From the human T2T-CHM13v2.0 reference genome, Homo sapiens, in the NCBI RefSeq assembly GCF_009914755.1, contig NC_060933.1: a stretch of DNA of 64,000 nt; one strand, given 5' to 3'. The notes under the pieces are model-generated. The model did not search any database, was not told the origin of the DNA, and was given only the letters and a program-made list of their open reading frames with translations. The stretch's first letter is position 1, and every line of letters starts with the position of its first letter. Position numbers and translations under genes: made by a program. This document shows positions 1 to 21,796 of the stretch, piece after piece.

Positions 1-895
1 ATATTCCTAATCTGGGTTTATTCTATGAAAGAAAAAGGAATTAATCTTTGTTTTTAATCTACACAGCATTCAAACTGGAAAGGCAAATTTCTATTTTCTA
101 ATGCTGGGTTATTAAAATGTATTTCAGATGACAGGCATAAAATACTTATTTCCATACAAACGACAAGACAGCAAAATGAATAGAATCATCATGCTCATGG
201 AAAATGCCAGCACCTCAGAGAGAGGGAGATCCAATCAGAAAAATGCTGTAGCTTTTACCTTTCAGAATAACGATTTACTAAGATTACTTTTAACCAGCTA
301 ATGGCTTTTGGTCTGACAAAATACAACAAATATTGGCATAGCATCTTACAGTATACGCTATATGCTGATAATTATCCCCATTTGGTGTTTATGGAAAATG
401 AAGCCTAGAGGTCTTAATAACAGCGAGTACGTGATGAAGCCAGAGGCCCGGAGGCCTGTGTCTCATCCCCAGTGGCCACGTGACAGGTTATACAAGTGCC
501 AACAAATTGCTGCTCATGAGACTTTTTTGCCCAGCTCTCATTTCATACCATAGTTGCCTTCAGGCTTCCAGAAGCTGTTCACCTCCAGAGCTGCCTCTTT
601 GGCCCAGCCTTCTCCTTGGGGATGGGCGCTCCCCTCACCTTCCATGGCTGCCTTACTCCTGCTCCCATCTCTCCACTGTTGCGTCTTCCCGTCTAGGCCG
701 GTCCCTTCAGACCTGCCTTTCCCTCCTGGAGATATGACACCTGACTCTGATTCAGATAGTCTAGGACCCTGGAAAGGTAAAGAGGAGTTTCCCTCTTCTG
801 AAAAGAGACCCCTGATCTTGCTCCGCACATGGAAATAGCAGAAATATGTCTCCAGTACACTGGCCCCATGCTCTGGTTTACGGGACGGGTCATTA

Positions 896-978
896 CTCCA
901 AGAGAGTCTATCACGGACATTCTGCTCCAAGAGAGTCTATCACGGACATTCTGCTCCAAGAGAGGCTATCACAGACAT
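896..978 (+). repeat. 29-bp tandem repeat, ~2.8 copies (CTCCAAGAGAGTCTATCACGGACATTCTG)
   Basis: Units at 896-924 and 925-953 are identical; the third (954-978) is partial and diverged. Confidence 0.95.
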
Positions 979-1341
979 CCTGGAATGGGAAGGATGCCTT
1001 CACACCGGTTGTGAAAAAGTCACTGGAAGTGGGATAAATTGAAGGCAGGGGCTTTTCCTTTTGCTCTCGAGTTATTTCCTTGGGTCTCCGCTCAGGGTGT
1101 CTGCACTAATCTTCAGTCCATCCCAGGTGGTGGCAACTGGTGAAACCAAGTGCTGCCCTGCATATACCATGTGCATCTGCAGTGGGTTCATCGAAGTTAC
1201 CAGAGCCTGAATGTATGTGAAAGGCCACATTCTCCAGGGGGCCCTCTAACATATTCAGCAAGAGGGTGGCAACTTGAGGGGCCCGATAACTTTCAGGATG
1301 TACTAGATCAAACTGCCTCAGAGTTATCTCAGGAGGGCTGC

Positions 1342-1647
1342 TTTTTTTTTTTTTTTTTTTTTTTGAGACGGAGTCTTGCTCTGTAGCCCAGGGTGGTGGA
1401 GCGCAGTGGCGCAATCTCAGCTCACTGCAACCTCTGCCTCTCAGCTTCAAGCAATTCTCCTGTCTCAGCCTCCCAGGTAGCTAGGATTACAGGCATGTGC
1501 CCCCACACTCGGCTAATTTTTATATTTTTAGTAGAGATGGGATTTCGCCATGTTGGCAAGGCTGGTCTTGAACTTCTGACCTCATGATCCACCCGTCTCC
1601 GCCTCCCAAAGTGTTGGGATTATAGGCATGAACCACCGCGCCTGGCC
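1342..1647 (-). mobile_element. Alu (AluS-type) with 12-bp TSD
   Basis: Poly-T then reverse Alu; TSD AGGGCTGCTTTT at 1334-1345 and 1649-1660, followed by AA (L1 endonuclease TTTT/AA site). Confidence 0.95.
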
Positions 1648-4518
1648 AAGGGCTGCTTTTAACAGAACTCTGCACACAACTGTTCTGACCGCCTCTTGGT
1701 ACACTCCCCATCAGTCTCTCCTTCTGTTCTTGTAGTGGCATGTCTCCATTCATTTTTATTGTTAATATCAATCTGGGGGGACCTTAAAGCAAACGCTGTA
1801 TTGTCTGATTCCTTTCTCCATCCATTGGAGCTGTCGCTGTCGCAGGGGGCTGTACGTTGACCTTCAGGCAGCCTCTGGATGGGGTCGTCACCTCTGCAGT
1901 TGTCAACCGGCCATCCTGCTATGGCACCCTTGGGCGTCCCTGCAGGCTGTACTCTGAACTCTGCCCTGACATCCTCTCCCAGGGGCGTGTCTCCAGGACA
2001 GGAAACACTACTTTCCAGCAGAGTGATTTCTGGTACCAGTGTGCTACCCCTTGTGGGAGATAAGAAAATTCCTGGAAACTCTCTGCATTTCCTGCCTAGA
2101 ACACCCCTTCTGAGAGTTCTCTTCCCTCCCCCAGGTTCCTCTAAAAGTTCCTCCTCTGAGCTGTCTGTCAGTGGACTCCAGAAGTAACCATTTCTGGGTG
2201 GGCTCTGCCCAGTCTCCTCTAAAACCTTACTATCTACATAGGTGTGTCTGAGTTGTGGCTGAACCCCAACCTCTCAGGAAACATCTCATCCTCACTGGAG
2301 TTCTGAATATGTCTATTTCCTGTTCTGTCATATTGTTGTTCAGCAGACTCCTCCTGCTTAAGACTTTTAGCAGGGGGCATGGCACCTCCTCCCTCCCTCT
2401 CATTCCTAACTGTAGTTTCTTGCCGCCCACAAGACCGATAGCCAGGAAAATTCTCCAGGAAGGAATTTGAAAATTCCAAAGACAAGGCCATTTCTGACAA
2501 GTTGTTCTGGGAGCTTAAAGGGAAGCTATGAATATCCATTTGGGTACCAGACTGGTCTCTGAGCAGAGGGGGAGGATCAGATGATCTCAGATAACCCTTT
2601 TTCTTATTTCCTAGAGCATTTGAACTTTGGCAAAGGTTAGACCAAGGGAGTCCTACAGAAGTTTGGGGACTTTTCAACTTGTGCTTTTTGGGAGAGCTGC
2701 ACAAGAACTTCTGGGCCCAATTTATAACATGACTCAGCTTCTGTGCCTCAGGGACAAAGGCATCAGCCACCATATGGAGATGCCATTCAGTTGGGCAGCA
2801 ATTTCTCTTGGGCCCCCACTGGGCTCTCTGGTCCCAGTATTGCTCTGCTTCTCCGGGAGTCACTTTGGACACTTCAAGGAGCAGAGGTTTCTTTCCATTT
2901 GCTAAATAATGAGGTAACGCCTGAAGGCCCCTCAGCCTGAAGGTCTGATGTTCTGTGGGGTTCACTTGGATGTCTTGGGAAGCCATCAACACTGATTGGC
3001 TGCCATTTCTGGAAGAATCACCCTTGAGGATCCCAATGCTTTCACAGTAAGTTACACACTTGGCTCGTGAGAGCTTTAGGCCATGGGATTGAGGAATGTC
3101 TGCTTCATTCTGTGGAGAATGTGCAGTCTGTATGGGAGGTAATGGATTCATCTGCAAATTTTTTAAAAAGAGACATTTTTTAAATACATGCTGTTTCAGG
3201 CAGAAGCAACAGCATGTGTGAAGGCTTCCAGATGAGCAAATTTGGCCAGAAGAAACTGGCCCAGGCCAAGGGCTGCAGACCCCTGGGGTGGAGCGAGTCA
3301 CAGTTGCTGCAAGTCATTGGAGAATCCATATGTGAGCTAAAAAATGCCTGAATAATAAACAAATAACACTGCAATTCATGAAATACATATTCATATGCAA
3401 ATGACTTCTGAACTCAGAGAAGCCTTTTGACATTGTGTATTTTCTTAATCCTTATACTAAAAGTATAATGACGAAAAGTATAATGACTGTCATGTCACTT
3501 TTGGAGAAAAAATTTCAGGATGAAACCATGACTTTATATTAAAAAAGTCATGGTCCATGTTGGCCTAGACTTAGCCTGTGCCCTCCCGCTTCCCTGACCC
3601 CTGTTTAGTGTTCTCAGGCTGCATTTGACTCTATGCCCAATAGGAAATCAATCTCATAAATAAATGCATGTTTAGGTGTTGCTAAGTTACAAGAAGTTAT
3701 AATCTTATACACATAATGTTGATACTAAATAACACTAAATAGACACTTTGAAATATGTATTTATGCACTTTGACAAATAATTTCTGAAGACATCATGTCT
3801 GTTCTGGAAGTAACAGATATTTGCGTCATGGAATTTTCCACGAGAAAAAGGAGCCATCTATCTTAGAAGGCAAAGGAGTGATTATACATGAAAAATCCTT
3901 TCTAGCCCAGTGGCTTTTGCAATGCATTCTGCAGAGCTCCATATTTGCAAGGAAAATCAGAGATCATGACAGAAGGGGTTTGGAGGGGGCCAAGGGGACT
4001 GCAGGATTTGAAACCCTTCATGCACTTCAACTAGAGCAATTCTAGTACATTTTAAATGGCAAGACTTCCTTTAAGGAAAGGATTCAACTGCCATGAAAAA
4101 GCATTTGAAATCTTCTGTACAATATTCTTACTTTGCAGAATAGGGGACCGAGGCTTAGAATGATGAAGTGACTTCTTCAAGGTCAGCCTGGTTGAGAACA
4201 GCAAGGTCATGCATGATAAGGGCCCTGTCTCCATTGCACCACAGTAGTGGGACATCCTCAGACTGGCAGCACGCCTGCAATCTCTCATGTAGTATCATCT
4301 ACCATATCTGACCATTCCAGCTCACCATGAATGACACCTTCTACAAACGATACCACTTAGTGTCTGTACATTGCTTAGAAACTATCATGTATTGCTTCTT
4401 TACTCATGCTTATTATATTGGTCATTTTAATTTTTGTTTCTTGAGTTATCTAATGTTTTACAAAAACATTTATTTTGAAACAACTCAAATTTACAAAATG
4501 TTATAGGTATAGTATAAA

Positions 4519-4630
4519 TAGGGTAACCAACCATCCCTGTTTGCCTGGAACTGAGGGGTTTCCCCGACACATGGCCATCAATGCTAAAACTGAGACTATC
4601 CCAGACAAACGAAGCTGGTCAGTCACCCCA
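4519..4630. mobile_element. MER81-like hAT-Blackjack MITE
   Basis: Termini tagggtaaccaacc...ggtcagtcacccca resemble the TAGGGTGACC TIR; recognised from memory of the consensus. Confidence 0.6.
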
Positions 4631-6861
4631 AGTAAAAAGTCATTTTATCCCCTTGAGAGTAAGTTGCCAACCTAATAGTCCATCATCCCTGAATAATTTA
4701 GTGTAGATTTTCTACAAACAAGGACATTATCTTTCATACTTTACAACATAGCCAGCAAAAACAGGAAAGTAACATTGATACATTATGACCATCTTATCCT
4801 CATACTCCATTCAATATTCACCAGTTGTTCCAGTAATGTCCTTTCTAGCAAAGGATTCAATTCAAAATCATGCATTGCATTTAGTTGCCATGCCTCTTTA
4901 GTCTCCTTCAATCTGGACAGATCCTCAGTCTTTCCTTGACTTAATGATGTATCTAATTTTTAAGGTAGCCACATCTAGTCTCTCTGATTTAGGGCACATA
5001 TAGTAGGTTATGGGTTTTTTTTTCTTTTATATTTTTAGAGCACCAATAACATTTTTTAACCATGTAGAATGTGCTTCATAAATAACTGATCAACAAGCAT
5101 GAAGTCAGCCAGACTCCATAACTGAAGGTAGCCATGATTCTGCTGGGATATTGAACTGGTTGTTCTCAGCAACAACTTGAACTCCCAAAGGGTCTGGTTT
5201 TCACACTGTAGCAAAGTCAAAGAACGAGAAGACTCTTTACTCTTCAGCTCTTCTTTGAAACCAAGAACATTTCATCTAGGCTGGCCCCAATCAATAATCT
5301 CAGCAGACTGGACTAGCTCATCAAAGAGTGAGATACTGGGACTGTGGAAGCTAGTCTGAAGACCATATGGTTTCAGCTTTTTACCCTTTTCTCATTACAT
5401 TGCACATTGCCTTGCACTAACCTTATTTTTTATCATGATGCATATAAGGGTGTCATTAGGGCCACAGTGGAGTAAAGATGACTTGGCTATTGTCTAGGCC
5501 ACTTGTGCCTGTCACTTATTAGAGATGGACACTCAGATCCAGAAAGTAGGACCACAGCTATGCCCACAAGAAGTAAGTAGCCAACTTATAAAGGAACCCG
5601 TGGCTTTTGGAAGCCCAGCGCTCTTTCCACAGCTTTCTCACTGTAAACAATAACAGCATGAAGACCCATTGTCAGGAAATTGTACTCATGTATAATTAGT
5701 ATCACTGTATACTTAGGACCTCAGAAACCCAGAAACTAGTACTTGAATTGAAAAAAATAAACCCTTAGTGTGTGGGTGTATGTGTGTGTGTGTGTACATA
5801 TATTTATATGTATGTATATATGTATATAAAATCAGGGTCCAGTGAGAGATATGAAAAATGTGTGATAACAATAACAACAAAATAATAACAGTAGCTGTTA
5901 ACACATAGCACTTAATGCTTTGAAAACAGAAGACAGATAGGTTAAGTAACTTGCCCAAGGTCACATAGCTGTAGATAGGAAAGCCAGAATTTCAGCCCAA
6001 GTCTACTGGTTTCAGAGTTCTTGTTTTTCTTAACTCTTGGATATATTACCTCTCACTTTTAATTATTTAGCTGGCTCTGCATTGTCATAACCAATGTATA
6101 GCTCAAGTTGTATTTTTAGAACCCAAATTCATAAGCCATTAATTCAAACACAAATAAACTGGTCTGCCCATGGAAAAGAAAATATCTGAAGCCAAACAGA
6201 AAAAAGAAAAAGTTTTACAATTATGATTTGCAATTACTTAAGAGCATTGTATACAACTGACAGTGTCGGTATATATAGATAAACAGATAGTTGCTTAATA
6301 AGCCTTTATTTCATTCCTTCTTGAATGACAGAATTTCTCTTTGGACCTCTGCGCTTCACTGTGTCCATAGCTGCTCCTTGCAAGTGACTGAAAACTTCCA
6401 AGAAATAAGCTTTGCCTCCCAGCTCCTCTGCAGGGTGCAGTCTGTACATGCCACCTATAGGCATGAAAAAGATGCTTGCTTTCTCCAGCATAGCCAGTGG
6501 GACTGCTTAGTGGGCTGTAAACCCCAAAGATTGTAGCAGGCAGAGCAGAAGTCAAGGGAGAGGCAAAGGGAATGGTTCACGCAAAACTTGTGACATTAAG
6601 AGAGAGAGTGGGGAGAAAAGCTGCAAGTGAATTTAAGGAAAGAAAACAGAAGCGTAACCACATTAAATTAAGGGCAGGGAAAACAAGGAGAATGATACAT
6701 CAGTTACAAACTGGAAACAGAGGTTGTCTTTTACCAAAAGCCAAACTACCTGCACAGTGATAAATTATTAGAACACAAAATAGTTTCTTCTTTTAGTACG
6801 ATAAACCGGGAAACAATGCACAATGCACACGTTTTAAAAAAAAAAAAAAGAAAGAAAACAA

Positions 6862-7157
<296 letters not shown>

Positions 7158-7679
7158 ATAAAAATAAAAAGTAAAACAAAATAACACTACATATTCTAAA
7201 AGAAGACTTTCCCTCCTCAAATCTAACAGACACCGTTGTTCTATTTCTGGTGCTTATACAATATCTGTCTCATTTAAAATAACCTGCAATTCCATCTCAG
7301 ACAAGTCTATAACGGAAGTAGCTGATGGATAAAACTCTCCTCATTTTCTCCACCCCTACTTTAAGGCTAAAGCTTCAGGATTCTCTAAGCCAGGACCCAG
7401 GTGAGAGAACAGTCTCCTCTAAATGAAGAACTCTCTCCCCAGCCTCAGGACTTTGTTATTTTACATATATTTATCTCTCCTCTCATGCCGAGTATATGGT
7501 AGAACCTCAACACACTCTTGTTAACTAGCTAAAGAATCAATCTAATTTGATCTAAACAATCAAATTTTCATTTTTAACTTTTCACTCAGGAAAAAAATAT
7601 TCTACTTTCCCCTTGGCCACTACTTCATCATTTTGGAAGCTCCAGCAGGTGGTACAGCACATTAAAAATACATGGATTC

Positions 7680-8143
7680 TGCCAGGCACAGTGGAACATG
7701 CCTGTAATCCCAGCTATTTGAGAGGCTGAGGTGGGAGGATCACTTGAGCCCAGGAGTTCAAGACTGTAGTGAGCCATGACTGCACCTGTGAAAAGCCTCT
7801 GCACTATAGTCTGAGCAACACAGTGAGACCTCATCCTTAAATATTAATTAATTAAGTCGGGCACAGTGGCTCACACCTGTAACCCAGCACTCTGGGAGGC
7901 TGAGGTGGGCTGATCACCTGAGTTCAAGGCCAGCCTGGCCAACGGGGAAACCCCATCTCTACTAAAAATACAAAAATTAGCCAGGCATGTTGGTGTGCAT
8001 CTGTAATCTCAGCTACTCAAGAGACTGAGGCATGAGAATTGCTTAAAACCCTAGAGGCAGAGGTTGGAATGAGTCAAGATCATGCCACTGCATTCCAGCC
8101 TGGGCAACAGAGCAAGACTCTGTCTCAAAAAATAAATAAATAA
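7680..8143 (+). mobile_element. Alu monomer (FLAM/FRAM-like, ~7680-7840) followed by a full Alu (~7856-8143)
   Basis: Two consecutive Alu-derived sequences; (TAAA)n tail. Confidence 0.85.
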
Positions 8144-8273
8144 ATATTAATTAATTTTTAAAAATATTTAAAGAATATGTGTGGATTCTAGAGTCAGGCA
8201 AACAATTTTGGGTTTAAATCCCAGGTCTACCATGAGCTATCAATGTCCCTTTAGGTAAATGACTCAACCTTGG

Positions 8274-11200
8274 TTATATGGTTTGGCTGGGTCCCCACCC
8301 AAATCTCATCTTGAATTGTAGCTCCAATAATCCCCATGTGTCATGGGAGGGACCCTGTGGGAGGTAATTGAATCATGGTGGTGGGTTTTCCCATGCTGTT
8401 CTCCTGATAGTGAATAAGTCTCAAAGATCTGATGGTTTTACAAAGCGCAGTTCCCCTGCACATAGTCTCTTGCCTGCTGCCATGTAAGACATGGCTTTGT
8501 TCCTCCTTCGCCTTCCACCATGATTGTGAGGCCTCCCCAGCCATGTAGAACTGATACAGACAGTAGACAGGGAAACACTGGGTAGAAAAGGGTGGTTCCC
8601 TGGCAAAGGCCCCACTCTCAAGCCTAAAGACCCACAGCCCTAAACAAGGATAGGCATTCCTGTTTTTGCACCCAAAAAGTTGCTTTTTGGACTACCATGC
8701 TCCCTATCCTGTACCCATATAAACCCTGAACCCCAGGCTCCAGAGCAGACCAGCAGACAAAGAGATGAGACAAGCAGAAAGACAGCAAATGATGTGGCAG
8801 AGAAAGAGAGAAGAGGAACGTCTGAACACCAAGAAGAGTTGGACTGGGGGTAGTTGGAGAGGAGTTAGGCCACTGGACAGCCCAACTCCAGGGGAAGATC
8901 ATCTTCCCATTCCATCCCCTCCTACCAGCTCCCCATCCATCCTGATGAGAGCCACCTCCACCACTCAATAAAACTTCACATTCATCCTTCAAGCCCATGT
9001 GTGACCCGATTCTTCTGGGATGCTGGGCAAGAGCTCAGGGTATTAAAAGCTATCACACTGGCCCTCTACCCTTGCAAAAAGGCAGAGGGTCCATTGAGCT
9101 GGTTAACACTCAAGCCATCTGTGGATGGCAAGGGTAAGAGAGCTTTGTAACACTGGGGCCACAGACACCCACCCCTAGACAGTAGACACTACCACAGGGC
9201 TGGAGCCTATAGTGCTCCCCTGGCTCCTGCCTGTCTGCGTGCTCCCCCTTGTCAGGGGCAAGCCACACTCCTGTCACACATCCTGCTAAGGGGATCAGGG
9301 AACTCTCCCATTTCAAAACTGTGAGTCCATTAAACCTCTTTTTCTTTATAAATTACCCAGTCTCAGGTATGTCTTTACTAGCAGTGTGAGAACGGACTAA
9401 TACAGTAAATTGATACTGCAGACAGTAGGGTGCTGCTGCAAAGGTACCTGAAAATGTGGAAGCAAATTTGGAACTTGGTAACAGGCAGAGGTTGGAATGG
9501 TTTGAGGAGCTCAGAAGAAGACAGGAAAATATGGGAAAGTTTGGAACTTCCTAGAGACTTCTAGGGCTCAGAAGACAGGAAGATATGGGAAAGTTTGGAA
9601 CTTCCTAGAGACTTATTGAATGCTTTTGGCCAAAATGTTGATAGTGATATAGACAATAATGTCCAGGCTAACGTGGTCTCAGATACAGATAAGGAACTTG
9701 TTGGAAACTAGAATAAAGGTCACTCTTGCTATGCAAAGAGACTGGCAGCATTTTGCCCCTGCCCCAGAGATCTGTGGAACTTTGAACTTGAGAGAGATGA
9801 TTTGGGGTATCTGGTGGAAGAAATTTCTAAGCAGCAAAGTGTTCAAGAGGAAGCAGAGCATAAAAGTTCAGAAAATTTGCAGCCTGACAATGTGATGGAA
9901 AAGAAAACCCCATTTTCTGGGGAGAAATTCAAGCTGGCTGCAGAAATTTGCATAGTAACGAGGAGCTAAATGTTAATCACCAAGACAATGGGGAAAATGT
10001 CTCCAGGTCATGTCAGACAGCTTTGTGGAAGCCCCTTCCATCACAGGCCCAGAGACCTAGGAGGAAAAAATGATTTCCTGAGCCAGGTCCCAGGCCCCCT
10101 TGCTGTGTGTAGCCTAGGGACTTGGTGCCCTGTGTCCCAGCTGCTCCAGCCATGGCTAACAGGGCCCAAGGTACAGCTCAGGCTGTGGCTTCAGAGGATG
10201 CAGGCCCCAATCCTTGGCAGCTTCCACGTGGTCTTGAGCCTGCGGGTACACAAAAGCCAAGAACCGAGGTTTGGAAACCACTGCCTATATTTCAGAGGAT
10301 GTATGGAAACACCTGAACGTCCACGCAGAAGTTTGCTGGAGGAGCAGGGCCCTCATGGAGAACCTCTGCTAGGGCAGTGCGAAAGGGAAATGTGGGGTTG
10401 AAGCCACTGAAGCCCCCACACAGAGTCCCCACTGGGGCACTGCCTAGTGGAGCTATGAGAAGAGGGCCTGTAAAATCACAAGCAAGTTAGTTAATTTCTA
10501 GATACAATGGGGGTAAAGGCATTGGATAAATATACCCTTTCCAAATGGGAGAAACTGGCCAAAACAAAGGGGCTATAGGCCCCATGTAAGTCTGAAATTC
10601 AATACTGTAGTCATTCTCCCCACCCCAGAATGGTAGATCCACTAACAGCTTACACCATGCACCTGGAAATGCTGCAAACACTCAACACCAGCTGTGAAAG
10701 CAGCTGGGAGGCAGTCTGTACCCTACAAAGCCACACAGGCAGAGTTGTCCAAGGTTGTGGGAGCCCACTTCTTGCATCAGCATGACCTGGATGTGAGGCA
10801 TAAAGTCAAAGGAGATCATTTTGGAACTTTAAAGTTTAATGACTTCCCTATTGGGTTTCAGACTTACATGGTGCCTATAGCCCCTTTGTTTTGGCCAGTT
10901 TCTCCCATTTGGAAAGGGGGTATTTATCCGATGCTTTTACCCCCCATTGTATCTAGAAATTAACTAACTTGCTTGTGATTTTACAGGCTCATTGGTGGAA
11001 GGGATTTGCCTTGTCTCAGATGAGACTTTGGACTGTGGACTTTTGAGTTAATGCTGAAATGAATTAAGACTTTGGGAGACTGTTGGGAAGGCATGATTGG
11101 TTTCAGAATGTGAGGACATGAGATTTGGGAGAAGCCAGGGGCAGAATGATATGGTTTGGCTTTGTCCCCACCCAAATATCATTTTGAATTATAGCTCCCA

Positions 11201-11506
11201 TAATCCCCACGTCATGGGAGGGACCCAGAGGGAGGTAATTGAATCATGGGGGCAGTTTCCCGCATACTGTTCTCATGGTAGTGAATAAGTTTCTCACTAC
11301 CATGGTTTTATAAAGGCCAGTTCCCTTGCACACACTCTCTTGCCTGCTGCCATGTAAGACATGCCTTTGCTCCTCCTTCGCCTTCCGCCATGATTGTGAG
11401 GCCTCCCCAGCCACGTGGAACTGTGAGTCCATTAAACCTATTTTTCTTTATAAATGACCCAGTCTCAGGTATGTCTTTATCAGCAATGTGAGAACAGACT
11501 AATACA
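8274..11506 (+). mobile_element. THE1 (ERVL-MaLR) provirus: 5' LTR 8274-9404 (interrupted), internal 9405-11146, 3' LTR 11147-11506
   Basis: Both LTRs start t(g/t)atatggtttggct and end gactaataca; THE1-type internal sequence lies between; inserted in a MIR-like flank. Confidence 0.9.
8552..9315 (+). mobile_element. ERV1 solo LTR (MER50-like) nested in the THE1 5' LTR
   Basis: TG...CA termini (tgatacagacag...ctcccatttca), near-identical 4-bp flanks gaac/aaac; the THE1 LTR resumes exactly after it. Confidence 0.75.
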
Positions 11507-12623
11507 TTCGGTTTCCTCATTCATAAAAATAGAGTTGGGGGGTGGGGAAGTGGGTCTTAAACTTTTCCTATCTCACGGTACAGGAATAAAGGGGGATAAA
11601 ATATCTTAGGTGTCTGGTCCAGAAAAGGTAATTATAAATGTTACTTATGTTTCCTTCTCCTCCTAATTTATCCAATAAATGCAAAAACTCTGAGGCACTC
11701 ACTGTCTTTTGCTCTTTATCCATTCATCAAACTTTCCTTGGAGCCTAATTGCATGCCAGATACATAACTTCATAAAACACATGTGGTTGTCTCTGGTCCT
11801 GTGGAACTACAGTGACAGGGGAGGGGGCAGAAATGAAACAGCTTACTGATAAATGAGTGAATGAATTTGGCTAGATTAATAGGAGTGGGTGAAAGGTAGC
11901 ATGAATAAACACTCCATTAGGGAAAAAGAAAATTAAGCTAAATTCAAAGTACCAAGTGTGCACGTGGAAGCCAGATCCTGGGAGTTTCTGAAATTCTCTG
12001 CGCCTCCCTTTCCTCTTCTACAAAATGGAGATAGTAATAGATGGTAACTCTTTTGGGTTACTGTGAAAAGTAAAACAACACTCCCCTCCCTCATCCTCAC
12101 TAACCCAGCATATCAACCAGTTTTCTGAGATGTCTAGATTTCCATTTGGCCTCCAGCCAGCTTGAACAGCCAAACTGCCCCCAAGAAAGCACCCTGAATG
12201 TGAGGTCATCCAGGGTCCTAGGACTCCATCATACCCACTCCAAAACTAAAAGCCCACAGACCGTGGGGGTAGGACCTGACTAGCTGAAACATGCTGACCA
12301 AGCTACCTGAAGCACCTCTGAGGTATGCCCAGGCCTCAGGGTTGTCAAGCAGAAAAACCAGCACCTCCAGCCAGGTGTGTCTCTCTCATAAAGAAAGCTG
12401 AAACAGTTTTCCCTGCTTCTGAGTGGCAAGCTCGCCCCCAGATGTTTCTGAGAGCACCGCCCTTGCATTCCCACCAGGCCACCTGAGAACCTGGCCTCCC
12501 ACATCTGGATTCGGCTGAAGCAGCAGTGTTTGAGAGAAAGGTGAGACTGGACAGTCAAGAAAGGGACAGAAAGTCGACGGTCTGGGAACTATCCCAGCGT
12601 GGACATTTACAGAAGCCACATAC

Positions 12624-12736
12624 CTGTGTGTCCTCACTCCTCACAGGAGGACCGTGCAAAGGCAAATTGCTAGGCAGGTAGACCTCACAGATTCTCTCAG
12701 CCGGGCAGTCGGTGAGTCTGTCCAAAGCATTTGAAT
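12624..12736 (-). pseudogene. Putative exon 2 of the lost gene (113 nt, open frame)
   Basis: Acceptor ttcttaacattttatcttcag|ATT; donor CAG|GTATGT; phase 1 to phase 0; reads (D)SNALDRLTDCPAERICEVYLPSNLPLHG...SEDTQ with no stop. Confidence 0.55.
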
Positions 12737-12899
12737 CTGAAGATAAAATGTTAAGAAGAAAATCCTAGAAAAACATGTCACATATATTCTACCCACCGAA
12801 CCAAACAAAAACAAAAAAGAAACACTTAATTTTTAATAATGGGCGCAAGAAGTACTCAAAGTAATAAATAATAATAATAATAAAAGTTACTTCTTAGCC

Positions 12900-13640
12900 T
12901 GACTGTCCTGGACGAGAATTCCGTCCCCACTTGCAGGTCGGGCACTGAGTGCCTGGACAGAGAGTTAGGTCCCCCGCTTACCCCGCCCTAAGGCTGCGGA
13001 AGGCGGCGCCATCGGTCGCCATGGAAATCGCGGCGGATGGGCGGATCCTGGGCAGGTTGGCTGGGTCGGGCTGCCCGGGCGACGCCGGAGTTGCAGTTGG
13101 AGGCTGCGGGAATACAAAGGTAAGAGAGCAACTCCTGGGTTCCCTTGACTCGCAAGGGCTTGACCCCTGCCCGGGTTCTGGGAAAGTGAAGCAGAAAGTC
13201 GCCTCCCAGCGCAGAATATTCAAATTTGCCAGATGATCAGAATTACGCTGATTTAAAACCCAAACCCTCCCTAGTTTCCCACTCCTGCCCTGCTAAATCA
13301 AAATCTCCCAGCCAGGATCCGGAATCTGGATTTAACCAGGGGCCGTTTATAGAGTTGGGAGATTGGTAGATACGAGGTTCGCCTATTCTTATTTCTCAAC
13401 GCCATACCACTACCCCGTAATGGTAAAAGAATTTGCACCCCAAAATCCTCCCCAGCGGCTCTGAAATGGAGTGCTTGGAGCTGGAAATGCGGAGCCCATT
13501 CCTCTCCTTGCAATACTGAAAGTTGTGAGCTGATTGGAAGCGTCGCTGCTTCTTGTGGGTTTCCCACTGGGGGGCAGCCTCGTCCTTCGCTCCTATTCCT
13601 TCCGCAAAGCAGAGCCGACAGTGTGGTTTCTGGCTAATTC
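12900..13640. promoter_or_regulatory. CpG-rich, GC-rich promoter-like island with two RFX X-box-like motifs
   Basis: Dense CpG in unique sequence; GTCGCCATGGAAAT (13015-13028), GCTGCCCGGGCGAC (13070-13083) and GC boxes. Confidence 0.7.
12982..13022 (-). pseudogene. Putative first coding exon of the lost gene
   Basis: ATGs at 13022 and 13012; donor GG|GTAAGC at 12981. The ATG at 13012 gives MAPPSAALGR+1 nt, in phase with the 12736 exon. Confidence 0.5.
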
Positions 13641-14184
13641 CGGCTGCAGCCTGGTTAATAATATAAGCAGCACTTCTAGGAAGCGGAGCTTGGATGCAGA
13701 GCAGAGCCTAGGGCTGTAAATGGAAGAAGCTCTCAGCCCCAATTCCTAGTTTACAGTTAGGGTTCAGAACAAAGAATCCACGCTTGTAAAGCAATAATGT
13801 TCCCCTTGAGGGGAACATTACACTGCCCTTCAGTTCACGTGTATTATTTCTCAGCCCCCCCGAGCTTTATCTTTCATTGGGCAATCAGGTGGGACTTCAG
13901 GATTGATGGAGCCAAGCGTTAGCCTTGGCTGCACACTGAGTAACTATGAGCCTCACCTGACCACCTTCAGGAGGCAGCGTGGTGGTGAGAGAGGACTCGC
14001 TTCTGCGCTAATGGGGATCGCCATAGCTTCAATGACTATAAAATCAGGACCTGTCGTATCTGCATAGCCTGTCTTAGAGGTTTACGGGACGCTCAGCTCA
14101 ATAGAGTGGGATAATCTATGGGTCTCTAGTACCTCATGCATTTACTGTACCTTATTTTGATAACCTGTTTATAGGTCTGACTTC

Positions 14185-14929
14185 TGTTATTTCATGTATA
14201 GGCATTGTCAGCTTAAAATCATGAGATCTTAAATTTGGAGAGGAGACTTTATTTCTTATAACGAGTTGCAGCTTGCAGGGTGGCCATCATGACAGGTAGA
14301 AGCTAGCCTCTGGCAGAGACCAATAGCAGGCACTTCAGAGGATAAAAGGGAGAGGTTGAGATTTATGCCCAAGGAAATTAGCTATACATACATATTCAGT
14401 AGGTTATAGGAGAATCTTATGAATATTTATGAGTCAATACATATGCACAGAATGAACATGTATGTAACATACAACACATGTTCACTTTGGGGTGGAGACA
14501 ACATTAAGATACAGTCAAATTTAGGCCACACACATTAAAAGGTGAAGCAGGGACATGAAAGTAATCAACGCTCAGCCTCTATGAATCAGCCAGAACCGGT
14601 CTGTGGTCTCTTAGAAGAAAGTTACTGAAATCAGTCTCTTGTCCAGTCAGAGCTGTAGTTATGCCTTGTGGAGCACGAGGTCAGTTAGTCAGTGTTTGGT
14701 GGTTAGTGAGCTGCAATTGTTTCAATATTGCTTATCTGGAGACCAGTGCTTGTTTTGCTGATAGAGAAAAAGAAAAACCTTGAGGCAGTTAGAAAATAGT
14801 TTATTCTTTAACTGTAGGGGCTGTAGGACTTAACCCTTGCCTACTACCACCTTAGGTCTTGTTTATAATTTGGTATCTTATTACCACAAAGAGTCCATTC
14901 TGTCAGCTTATGACCTCTATTTTAGCAAC
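14185..14929 (-). mobile_element. ERV1 (MER4-group-like) solo LTR
   Basis: LTR-like sequence recognised by eye (ggagactttatttcttata...; ...ttattctttaactgtagggg...); subfamily and ends approximate. Confidence 0.55.
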
Positions 14930-16783: not shown

Positions 16784-20731
<3,948 letters not shown>

Positions 20732-20779
20732 TTATTTTGCTTGTTAGTTGATGCAGTTTCTTCCTAGTCTCGATGGTCT

Positions 20780-21796
20780 TTACATTTTGGCATGATTTTG
20801 CAGTGGCTGATACTGGTTGTTCCTTTCCATGTTTAGAGCTTCCTTCAGCAACTCTTTTAGGGCAGGCCTGGTGGTGACAAAATCTCTCAGCATTTGCTTG
20901 TCTGTAAAGTATTTTATTTCTCCTTCACTTATGAAGCTTAGTTTGGCTGGATATGAAATTCTGGGGTGAAAATTCTTGTCTTTAAGAATGTTGAATATTG
21001 GCCCCCACTCTCTTCTGGCTTGTAGGGTTTCTGCTGAGAGATCCGCTGTTAGTCTGATGGGCTTCCCTTTGAGGGTAATCCGACCTTTCTCTCTGGCTGC
21101 CCTTAACATTTTTTCCTTCATTTCTACTTTGGTGAATCTGACAATTATGTGTCTTGGAGTTGCTCTTCTCAAGGAGTATCTTTGTGGTGTTCTCTGTATT
21201 TCCTGAATCTGAACATTGGCCTGCCTTGCTAGATTGGGGAAGTTCTCCTGGATAATATCCTGCAGAGTGTTTTCCAACTTGGTTCCATTCTCCCCATCAC
21301 TTTCAGGTACACCAATCAGACGTAGATTTGGTCTTTTCACATAGTCCCATATTTCTTGGAGGCTTTGCTCATTTCTTTTTATTCTTTTTTCTCTAAACTT
21401 CCCTTCTCGCTTCATTTCATTCATTTCATCTTCCATTGCTGGTACCCTTTCTTCCAGTTGATCGCATCAGCTCCTGAGGCTTCTGCATTCTTCACATAGT
21501 TCTCGAGCCTCGGTTTTCAGCTCCATCAGCTCCTTTAAGCACTTCTCTGTATTGGTTATTCTAGTTATACATTCTTCTAGATTTTTTTCAAAGTTGTCAA
21601 CTTCTTTGCCTTTGGTCTGAATGTCCTCCCGTAGCTCAGAGTAATTTGATCGTCTGAAGCCTTCTTCTCTCAGCTCGTCCAAGTCATTCTCCATCCAGCT
21701 TTGTTCCCTTGCTGGTGAGGAACTGCGTTCCTTTGGAGGAGGAGAGGTGCTCTGCTTTTTAGAGTTTCCAGTTTTTCTGTTCTGTTTTTTCCCCAT
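20780..21796 (-). pseudogene. L1 ORF1p, broken by a premature stop at 21467-21469
   Basis: ORFs 21467..21796 and 20780..21436 are in the same frame; MGKKQNRKTGNSK... / ...ERNNQYQPLQNHAKM. Confidence 0.95.

What the first reader, a model, noticed from the sequence alone, without database searches (positions are those of the whole stretch)
259..13100. Reconstructable lost protein-coding gene (candidate unitary pseudogene) downstream of FRMD3
Seen: a minus-strand architecture of CpG-rich promoter, exon 1 (ATG 13012, donor 12981), exon 2 (12736-12624, strong splice sites, open) and a giant exon from acceptor 3347. Splice phases agree (1 to 1, 0 to 0). The giant exon is a chain of long stop-free frames in unique DNA: 355 codons, an overlapping 204-codon frame (…NGYFWSPLTDSSEEELLEE…), ~120 codons across the Alu, ~50 more after one TAG, and 130 more. 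About three frameshifts, one stop, one Alu and one repeat expansion explain all the breaks over ~800 codons. A possible donor AAG|GTAAAA at 259 suggests the gene continues left of the window. Inference: an ancestral vertebrate gene inactivated in primates. CxxC-like remnants (TCSNCDS, CVTYCES) hint weakly at zinc ribbons.
Basis: partly seen in the sequence, partly recalled or inferred. Interest (0 to 1): 0.9.

Follow-up and report, generated by a model that had tools for sequence, protein, structure and literature searches.

The report
Decaying orphan gene beside FRMD3
Next to FRMD3 the human genome carries an unannotated, single-copy reading frame of about 300 codons that is also open in a leopard.

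Summary
The core observation is real. On the minus strand, 3313-2237 is stop-free for 359 codons; 0 of 1000 composition-matched simulations reached that length. The DNA is unmasked and single-copy.

Two public predicted proteins match it. A leopard protein of 326 aa is 60% identical over 299 positions in one frame. A macaque model of 365 aa is 87% identical. Neutral drift to 60% identity left the frame open in 0 of 2000 simulations, so this was a coding frame in the common ancestor of primates and carnivores.

With that acceptor the human model (ATG 13012, exon 2, exon 3) is an unbroken 353-codon ORF.

Signs of decay:
- Human and macaque differ at 13 of 111 residues, the neutral expectation.
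- The macaque model ends where human has TGG.
- Human and leopard change frame relative to each other at 2266-2261.

Not supported: about 800 codons, vertebrate age, zinc ribbons, and continuation to the left. The 204-codon second frame is borderline (32 of 1000) and has no homologue.

The protein is predicted to be disordered, with no known family.

The parts
13001..13200 (.). Small CpG-rich patch. It is the likely promoter shared head-to-head with FRMD3-AS1, whose annotated start is 13087 on the plus strand.
   Evidence: GC 0.64 and CpG o/e 0.82 in this 200-bp bin; the flanking bins are 0.35-0.74. RefSeq annotation supplied with the finding. A promoter role for the minus strand is inferred.
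12982..13012 (-). Candidate exon 1 coding part: ATG 13012, 31 nt, ending in phase 1, with donor GGG|GTAAGC at 12981. An out-of-frame ATG lies upstream at 13022.
   Evidence: Read from the sequence. The spliced model is open. The macaque model reads this region in another frame and through this donor, so the human exon 1 is the least supported part.
12624..12736 (-). Exon 2: 113 nt, phase 1 to phase 0, with consensus splice sites.
   Evidence: Sequence. Macaque model residues about 217-254 map here; 34 of 38 exon-2 residues are identical by my count from the tblastn alignment.
2234..3151 (-). Exon 3 reading frame: 305 codons from ATG 3151 to TAG 2236-2234, directly after acceptor TTTGCAG| at 3153-3152. 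This is the conserved core.
   Evidence: The leopard protein starts at this ATG and aligns in a single frame from 3151 to 2264, with 179 of 299 positions identical and 4 gap positions. The macaque model joins exon 2 to this ATG.
2816..2818 (-). Human TGG codon at the position where the macaque predicted protein ends, which implies a macaque stop.
2261..2266 (-). Place where human and leopard reading frames part. Human has two bases where leopard has one codon, a net difference of one base. Which species carries the change is unknown.
   Evidence: The tblastn alignment ends at 2264. The leopard C-terminus continues in the human second frame, 16 of 30 identical, E 9e-06. Sequence.
1659..2273 (-). 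Second open frame: 204 codons plus TAA 1661-1659. It may be the former C-terminal half of the protein, but this is unproven.
   Evidence: A run of this length arose in 32 of 1000 simulations. No protein hit. Codon frame-contrast 0.021, the 68th percentile of chance ORFs. The leopard model stops opposite human TGG 2180-2178.
1755..1760 (-). AATAAA on the minus strand, the only canonical poly(A) signal between the ORF and window position 58. If it is used, the mRNA ends before the second frame does.
   Evidence: Its use is not shown.
1333..1653 (-). Alu insertion, sense on the minus strand, with a 23-base A tail and a 12-base target-site duplication. It sits just after the TAA that ends the second frame.
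   Evidence: Masked interval; sequence and duplication; T run at 1342-1364.
896..982 (.). Tandem repeat, 29 bp x 3, 94% matches. It lies outside any supported coding part.
3152..3347 (-). By the macaque model it is intron. The frame entered from exon 2 stops at 3182-3180.

Best explanation
A three-exon minus-strand gene starts at the small CpG patch shared with FRMD3-AS1. It runs through exon 2 (12736-12624) into a last exon that begins at ATG 3151.

Its frame of about 300 codons is an old coding sequence, present at least in the common ancestor of primates and carnivores. It is single-copy and belongs to no known family. It encodes a fast-evolving protein predicted to be intrinsically disordered, with at most a few short helices.

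In Old World primates the frame now evolves at the neutral rate. The macaque copy carries a premature stop. The human copy still reads open for 353 codons, but its C-terminus is in a different frame from leopard's.

The most likely reading is a gene in the course of being lost, a young or candidate unitary pseudogene. It is not a demonstrably dead 800-codon gene.

Shown: the open frames, the splice-site sequences, the homology, the single-frame alignment and the neutral-like primate divergence. Inferred: transcription in human, the ancestral length, and loss of function.
For: - The 359-codon run exceeded every one of 1000 simulations.
- No second copy in the human genome at E<=10 other than one 17-bit chance hit. 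The DNA is unmasked.
- The leopard protein aligns in one frame over 299 positions at 60% identity, with 4 single-residue gaps. In 2000 substitution-only neutral simulations to 60% identity, a mean of 7.9 stops arose and none stayed open.
- The macaque model independently gives exon 2 and the 3151 acceptor.
- The human spliced model is 353 codons with no internal stop.
- Human and macaque differ at 13 of 111 residues. The simulation gives 14.1 +/- 2.2 of 112 at 6.5% neutral divergence; that divergence figure is recalled.
- The macaque model ends opposite a human TGG.
- The model of the protein is disordered: the Atlas model has pLDDT 0.32 and AlphaFold2 on the 3-row alignment has mean pLDDT 37.5, with low-confidence helices at 103-109, 122-131, 135-149 and 226-233.
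Against: - The human frame is intact over 353 codons, and its end lies within about 20 codons of the leopard end, so inactivation in human is not shown.
- Changes polarised with leopard are 3 human-derived, 7 macaque-derived and 3 unresolved (binomial p 0.34). This allows some remaining constraint on the human branch.
- Only 2 predicted proteins were found in named public sources, each the sole member of its 90% cluster. Both are automatic 'uncharacterized LOC' models, and the macaque one is listed under UniRef and nr only.
- The codon frame-contrast of the core ORF is 0.053. That is the 83rd percentile of chance ORFs, and 15% of real 200-codon coding chunks score lower. It is intermediate and not decisive.
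- I had no human RNA, ribosome or peptide evidence, and no DNA from other mammals. dN/dS, synteny and the timing of the lesions are therefore untested.
Confidence: 0.5

Rival explanations
1. This is a live, unannotated human protein-coding gene of 353 aa (from ATG 13012) or 305 aa (from ATG 3151). It encodes a rapidly evolving disordered protein. The macaque stop is then a lineage-specific loss or a variable C-terminus.
For: - The spliced human frame has no internal stop.
- It uses the same start ATG as the leopard model, and the ends lie within about 20 codons.
- Fewer human-derived than macaque-derived replacements, 3 against 7.
- Real fast-evolving giant-exon genes on chr9 (SPATA31D1, SPATA31G1, TOPORS, BRD10) give similarly low codon frame-contrast, with chunk values of 0.01-0.16.
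Against: - Human-macaque protein divergence equals the neutral expectation.
- RefSeq has no gene here (and the supplied annotation).
- No human protein was returned by three database searches.
- The start contexts are weak and an out-of-frame ATG lies upstream at 13022.
- The 3-versus-7 split is not significant (p 0.34).
Confidence: 0.25
2. An ancestral vertebrate gene with a giant exon of about 800 codons starts at acceptor 3347, is broken by about three frameshifts, one stop, an Alu and a repeat expansion, and continues left of the window through a donor at 259.
For: - The open runs exist.
- The 204-codon run is longer than in 968 of 1000 simulations and follows directly on the core frame.
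- The leopard C-terminus runs 30 residues into it.
- Acceptor-like and donor-like sequences exist at 3347 and 259.
Against: - The frame entered at 3347 stops at 3182-3180, and the macaque model uses 3151.
- The 204-codon frame ends at a TAA that lies at the start of the Alu target-site duplication, so it predates the insertion.
- The runs beyond it (124 and 132 codons) are below the simulated mean longest run of 139.
- The second frame has no homologue and no Atlas look-alike, and its codon contrast is at the 68th null percentile.
- The left flank holds only an antisense-Alu run and AT-rich runs.
- The cysteines are not conserved.
- No non-mammalian hit was found.
Confidence: 0.05
3. This is a non-coding RNA exon or plain intergenic DNA. 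Its long ORF is a chance feature that two automatic pipelines happened to call as protein.
For: - Only 2 automatic models exist, each alone in its 90% cluster. No other cat-family species has one, so annotation is erratic.
- The model is disordered and there is no domain.
- The codon pattern is not clearly coding.
- Primate divergence is neutral.
Against: - Chance does not give 359 open codons (0 of 1000).
- Chance does not keep the same frame open across about 22% nucleotide divergence (0 of 2000, mean 7.9 stops, before counting any indels).
- Even after allowing for a few hundred annotated mammals from which the one open copy could have been picked (a recalled number), the expected count stays below about 0.1.
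Confidence: 0.07

Closest known systems
Unitary pseudogenes: single-copy genes lost in a lineage with no functional paralogue. GULOP in primates is an example recalled from general knowledge.
   Same: The locus is single-copy with no parent in the genome. The same frame is open in another mammalian order. A primate copy has a stop, and primate divergence is at the neutral rate.
   Different: No orthologue with a known function exists. The human frame is not clearly disabled (353 open codons). Synteny of the leopard gene could not be checked.
Orphan 'uncharacterized LOC' proteins and long ORFs carried by divergent transcripts from bidirectional promoters.
   Same: Head-to-head arrangement with the lncRNA FRMD3-AS1. 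There is no domain, the model is disordered, and annotation across species is patchy.
   Different: The ORF is unusually long at 305-353 codons. The frame is conserved between primates and a carnivore, which typical lncRNA ORFs are not.
SPATA31 (FAM75) family of chromosome 9 genes with giant last exons.
   Same: The architecture is similar: small 5' exons followed by one large coding exon for a disordered, fast-evolving protein. The chromosome arm is the same (SPATA31D1 and SPATA31E1 coordinates). Codon frame-contrast is similarly low.
   Different: There is no sequence similarity. tblastn of the 359-aa piece against the whole genome found nothing but itself, and there is no Pfam match at E<=1. 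It is not a member.

Membership tests
Unitary pseudogene | No functional parent or paralogue in the same genome | tested here: met
   tblastn of the 359-aa piece against the whole reference found only the locus itself (E 1.3e-249) and one chance hit (E 3.4). Closed regions of the reference are not shown.
Unitary pseudogene | Intact, functional orthologue at the syntenic place in another species | tested here: inconclusive
   A leopard predicted protein of 326 aa is 60% identical. Its function is unknown. Synteny could not be tested because no vertebrate genomes are available here. Its contig of 93.8 Mb is chromosome-sized and tells nothing more.
Unitary pseudogene | Disabling mutation in the human copy | tested here: inconclusive
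   There is one frame difference from leopard at 2266-2261 near the C-terminus, of unknown polarity. Otherwise the human frame is open for 353 codons.
Unitary pseudogene | Loss of selective constraint in the lineage | tested here: met
   Human and macaque differ at 13 of 111 residues, against a simulated neutral 14.1 +/- 2.2 of 112. The macaque model is truncated at human codon 112. This is protein-level only; dN/dS was not computed.
Processed or duplicated pseudogene | A parent gene elsewhere in the genome | tested here: not met
   none.
Transposon- or virus-derived ORF | Repeat-masked, multi-copy, or carrying transposase, reverse-transcriptase, gag or env domains | tested here: not met
   1654-6827 is unmasked. 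The sequence is single-copy. No Pfam family at E<=1 for any of the four pieces.
SPATA31 / FAM75 | Sequence similarity to family members or family Pfam domains | tested here: not met
Zinc-ribbon / CxxC protein | Conserved paired cysteines | tested here: not met
   C33 and C36 of the ORF are R and Y in leopard and C and Y in macaque. TCSNCDS lies in the 3413-3183 frame upstream of the supported acceptor. No Pfam zinc-ribbon match for the ORF.
Live protein-coding gene | Open frame, cross-order frame conservation, purifying selection, and expression or translation | tested here: inconclusive
   Open frame: met. Frame conservation: met. Constraint in primates: not seen. Codon pattern: intermediate. 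Human expression and translation cannot be tested with these tools.
Known RNA family | Match to an Rfam model at its gathering score | tested here: not met
   0 matches in 1-14500 on both strands.

The most novel reading that the evidence does not exclude
The human genome still makes a functional, unannotated protein of about 353 residues from this locus. It would be an intrinsically disordered orphan protein, kept since before the primate-carnivore split and driven from the promoter shared with FRMD3-AS1. A variant of this reading: the ancestral protein was about 500-545 residues, running on to the TAA at 1661, and human, macaque and leopard each shortened it independently.
Probability: 0.22. 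Interest if true: 0.7.

Novelty: new member of a known kind. Interest (0 to 1): 0.4.

Why it matters
Human gene catalogues are close to saturated, so an unannotated reading frame of more than 300 codons that is also kept open in a carnivore is uncommon.

If it is a gene being lost, it adds a datable case of gene death in Old World primates. It has three different C-terminal outcomes in three species.

If it is still functional, it is a missing human protein-coding gene lying about 33 kb beyond the annotated 3' end of FRMD3 (36782), a locus I recall from kidney-disease association studies. Variant interpretation in that interval would then need to take it into account.

Either way the claim is testable in an afternoon with public genome alignments and RNA-seq.

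Tried and rejected
- **Domain, structure and family searches found nothing.** Pfam on four pieces at E<=1. PDB sequences at E<=1. The Atlas on the 305-aa ORF gave a best feature score of 0.79 and TM<=0.27, which is below any usable level. The Atlas on the 204-aa frame gave no usable hit. Rfam found nothing.
- **Protein database searches have length limits.**
  - could see only proteins of about 197-628 aa, about 112-357 aa, and about 179-570 aa.
  - They left out 1100, 123 and 3145 candidates of unnamed source.
  - A longer intact orthologue, or one known from samples alone, would have been invisible. A blank beyond the two hits is therefore weak.
- **A plain codon-usage log-odds score was dropped.** It mostly tracked G+C: the top scorers were both strands of the CpG patch. 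I replaced it with a frame-contrast score. That score separates real exons (0.105 +/- 0.053, n=172 chunks from 40 chr9 exons) from chance ORFs (0.001 +/- 0.049, n=139). The null set excluded the locus itself, the LINE-1 interval and the FRMD3 exon neighbourhoods. The candidate fell in between.
- **The left flank showed no coding-like runs.** In the 20 kb fetched as L003 and L004, the longest run (223 codons) is antisense Alu.
- **Rejected readings:** processed pseudogene, transposon ORF, SPATA31 member and zinc ribbon (see the membership tests).
- **Literature.**
  - I saw search listings only and read no paper.
  - 'unitary pseudogene' + FRMD3 gave 0 papers.
  - The two LOC identifiers gave 0.
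  - FRMD3-AS1 gave 1 unrelated paper on a sarcoidosis blood transcriptome, of which I saw the listing and abstract start only.
  - RASEF + FRMD3 + uncharacterized gave 0.
  - Supplementary tables of unitary-pseudogene, PhyloCSF or Ribo-seq ORF catalogues may list this locus. They were closed and I did not see them.
- **Figures recalled rather than taken from a call:** human-macaque divergence of 6.5%, the number of annotated mammals, and the examples GULOP and the FRMD3 association studies.
Full report
**What is in the sequence**

On the minus strand, window 3313-2237 is free of stops for 359 codons. The ORF listing gives 355 aa from a GTG. An overlapping second frame, 2273-1662, is open for 204 codons. 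The DNA between 1654 and 6827 is not masked as repeat, and RefSeq has no minus-strand gene here.

I simulated 541-3313 one thousand times with a first-order Markov model and took the longest stop-free run in any of six frames. It reached 359 codons 0 times and 204 codons 32 times. The mean longest run was 139 codons.

The 359-codon frame is therefore far beyond chance. The 204-codon frame is borderline.

**What it is not**

- tblastn of the 359-aa piece against the whole reference found only the locus itself and one 17-bit chance hit. It is therefore not a processed or duplicated pseudogene and not a SPATA31-type family member.
- Pfam at E<=1, the PDB at E<=1, Rfam and the Atlas gave nothing usable.
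- The Atlas's own model has pLDDT 0.32. AlphaFold2 on the three-row alignment has mean pLDDT 37.5 with no residue above 70 and only short low-confidence helices, notably residues 122-149. The product is predicted to be intrinsically disordered.

**Relatives**

Three searches of named public proteins returned the same two entries:

- leopard 'uncharacterized protein LOC128778677', 326 aa;
- macaque 'uncharacterized protein LOC114672648', 365 aa.

Each is alone in its 90% cluster.

The leopard protein starts at the residue matching human ATG 3151. It aligns in a single frame down to 2264, with 179 of 299 positions identical and 4 single-residue gaps. I mutated the human ORF at random, with transition and CpG bias, until protein identity fell to 60%. 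This produced a mean of 7.9 stops, and no simulation out of 2000 stayed open. Indels were not included, so the test is conservative.

The frame was therefore maintained by selection for much of the time since primates and carnivores diverged. There is an ascertainment caveat, because the one open copy may have been picked from a few hundred annotated mammals (a recalled number). That does not rescue chance.

**Gene model**

The macaque model maps to window 14054-13956 and to 13612-12905 (where the human sequence has stops and frame changes).

The sequence shows these sites:

- donor GGG|GTAAGC at 12981;
- acceptor TTTTATCTTCAG| before 12736;
- donor CAG|GTATGT after 12624;
- acceptor TTTGCAG| before 3151.

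Joining ATG 13012-12982, 12736-12624 and 3151-2234 gives 353 codons with no internal stop. It feeds the frame 3413-3183, however, which stops at 3182-3180. It would need a frameshift that the 3151 route does not need. An out-of-frame ATG at 13022 and weak start contexts make the true start uncertain. The leopard model starts at the exon-3 ATG.

**Signs of decay**

- The macaque model ends where human has TGG 2818-2816, which is codon 112 of the exon-3 frame.
- Over the 111 shared residues, human and macaque differ at 13. Neutral simulation at 6.5% nucleotide divergence (a recalled figure) gives 14.1 +/- 2.2 of 112. Exon 2 differs at 4 of 38 residues by my count.
- Polarised with leopard, 3 changes are human-derived, 7 are macaque-derived and 3 are unresolved (p 0.34).
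- Human and leopard frames part at 2266-2261, where human has two bases against one leopard codon. Human then ends 10 codons later at TAG 2236-2234. Leopard runs 28 more residues in what is the human second frame and stops opposite human TGG 2180-2178. Without a third sequence the direction of this change is unknown.

**How far did the ancestral frame go?**

The 204-codon frame ends at TAA 1661-1659. That TAA sits at the start of the 12-base target-site duplication of the Alu at 1333-1653. It therefore predates the insertion, and the Alu did not break the frame.

A frame running from ATG 3151 to that TAA would be about 500 codons. A protein of that size was within the length range, and none was found.

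- The second frame has no protein hit.
- Its codon frame-contrast is 0.021, the 68th percentile of 139 chance ORFs; only 4% of 172 real coding chunks score lower.
- The core ORF scores 0.053, the 83rd percentile of chance ORFs; 15% of real chunks score lower. The FRMD3 exon in this window scores 0.146.
- An AATAAA at 1760 lies inside the second frame.

The extension is possible but unproven. Everything beyond 1659 is at chance level.

- The CpG-rich promoter is a patch of about 200 bp at 13001-13200 that coincides with the FRMD3-AS1 start.
- The repeat expansion is a 29-bp x 3 array at 896-982.
- The donor-like AAG|GTAAAA at 259 exists. The 20 kb to the left, however, holds only an antisense-Alu run of 223 codons and AT-rich runs.
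- The cysteines of CVTYCES are not conserved, and TCSNCDS lies in intron by the macaque model.

**Verdict**

This is a real, unannotated, single-copy coding frame of about 300 codons that was conserved across mammalian orders. It now drifts at the neutral rate in Old World primates.

- Most likely it is a gene on its way out (0.5).
- Possibly it is still a live human gene (0.25).

I found nothing in print about it (search listings only, with supplements closed).

The decisive data could not be reached here. These are genome alignments of other mammals, human RNA-seq junctions, ribosome footprints and population variants.

Noticed in passing
window 16787-21466, minus strand: Long open runs of 730, 394, 229 and 228 codons lie in fully masked DNA. 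The 730-codon piece matches reverse transcriptase (RVT_1, E 1.7e-31). The 394-codon piece matches the endonuclease family (Exo_endo_phos, E 1.5e-20). This is a LINE-1 ORF2 in several pieces, lying in the first intron of FRMD3-AS1.
   Followed up: partly
window 12905-14054, minus strand: The first 250 residues of the macaque model map upstream of exon 2 across the promoter region. In human this region has several stops and frame changes. That part of the macaque 'protein' looks like a 5' leader read as the longest ORF, not conserved coding sequence.
   Followed up: partly
window 2237-3151, minus strand: The Atlas holds the 305-aa human ORF letter for letter, yet the named-source protein searches did not return a human entry. 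The Atlas record may come from human DNA in a sample. I did not pursue it.
   Followed up: no
L004 3613-4281, minus strand (chr9:95,349,613-95,350,281): A 223-codon stop-free run that is mostly antisense Alu. It shows how repeats can give long open frames near this locus.
   Followed up: yes
window 896-982: A 29-bp unit repeated three times with 94% matches. It lies outside any supported coding part.
   Followed up: partly
window 12949-13292, both strands: Several runs of 82-104 codons on both strands of the CpG patch score highest on plain codon log-odds, purely because of G+C content. This is a caution against GC-driven 'coding potential' at promoters.
   Followed up: yes
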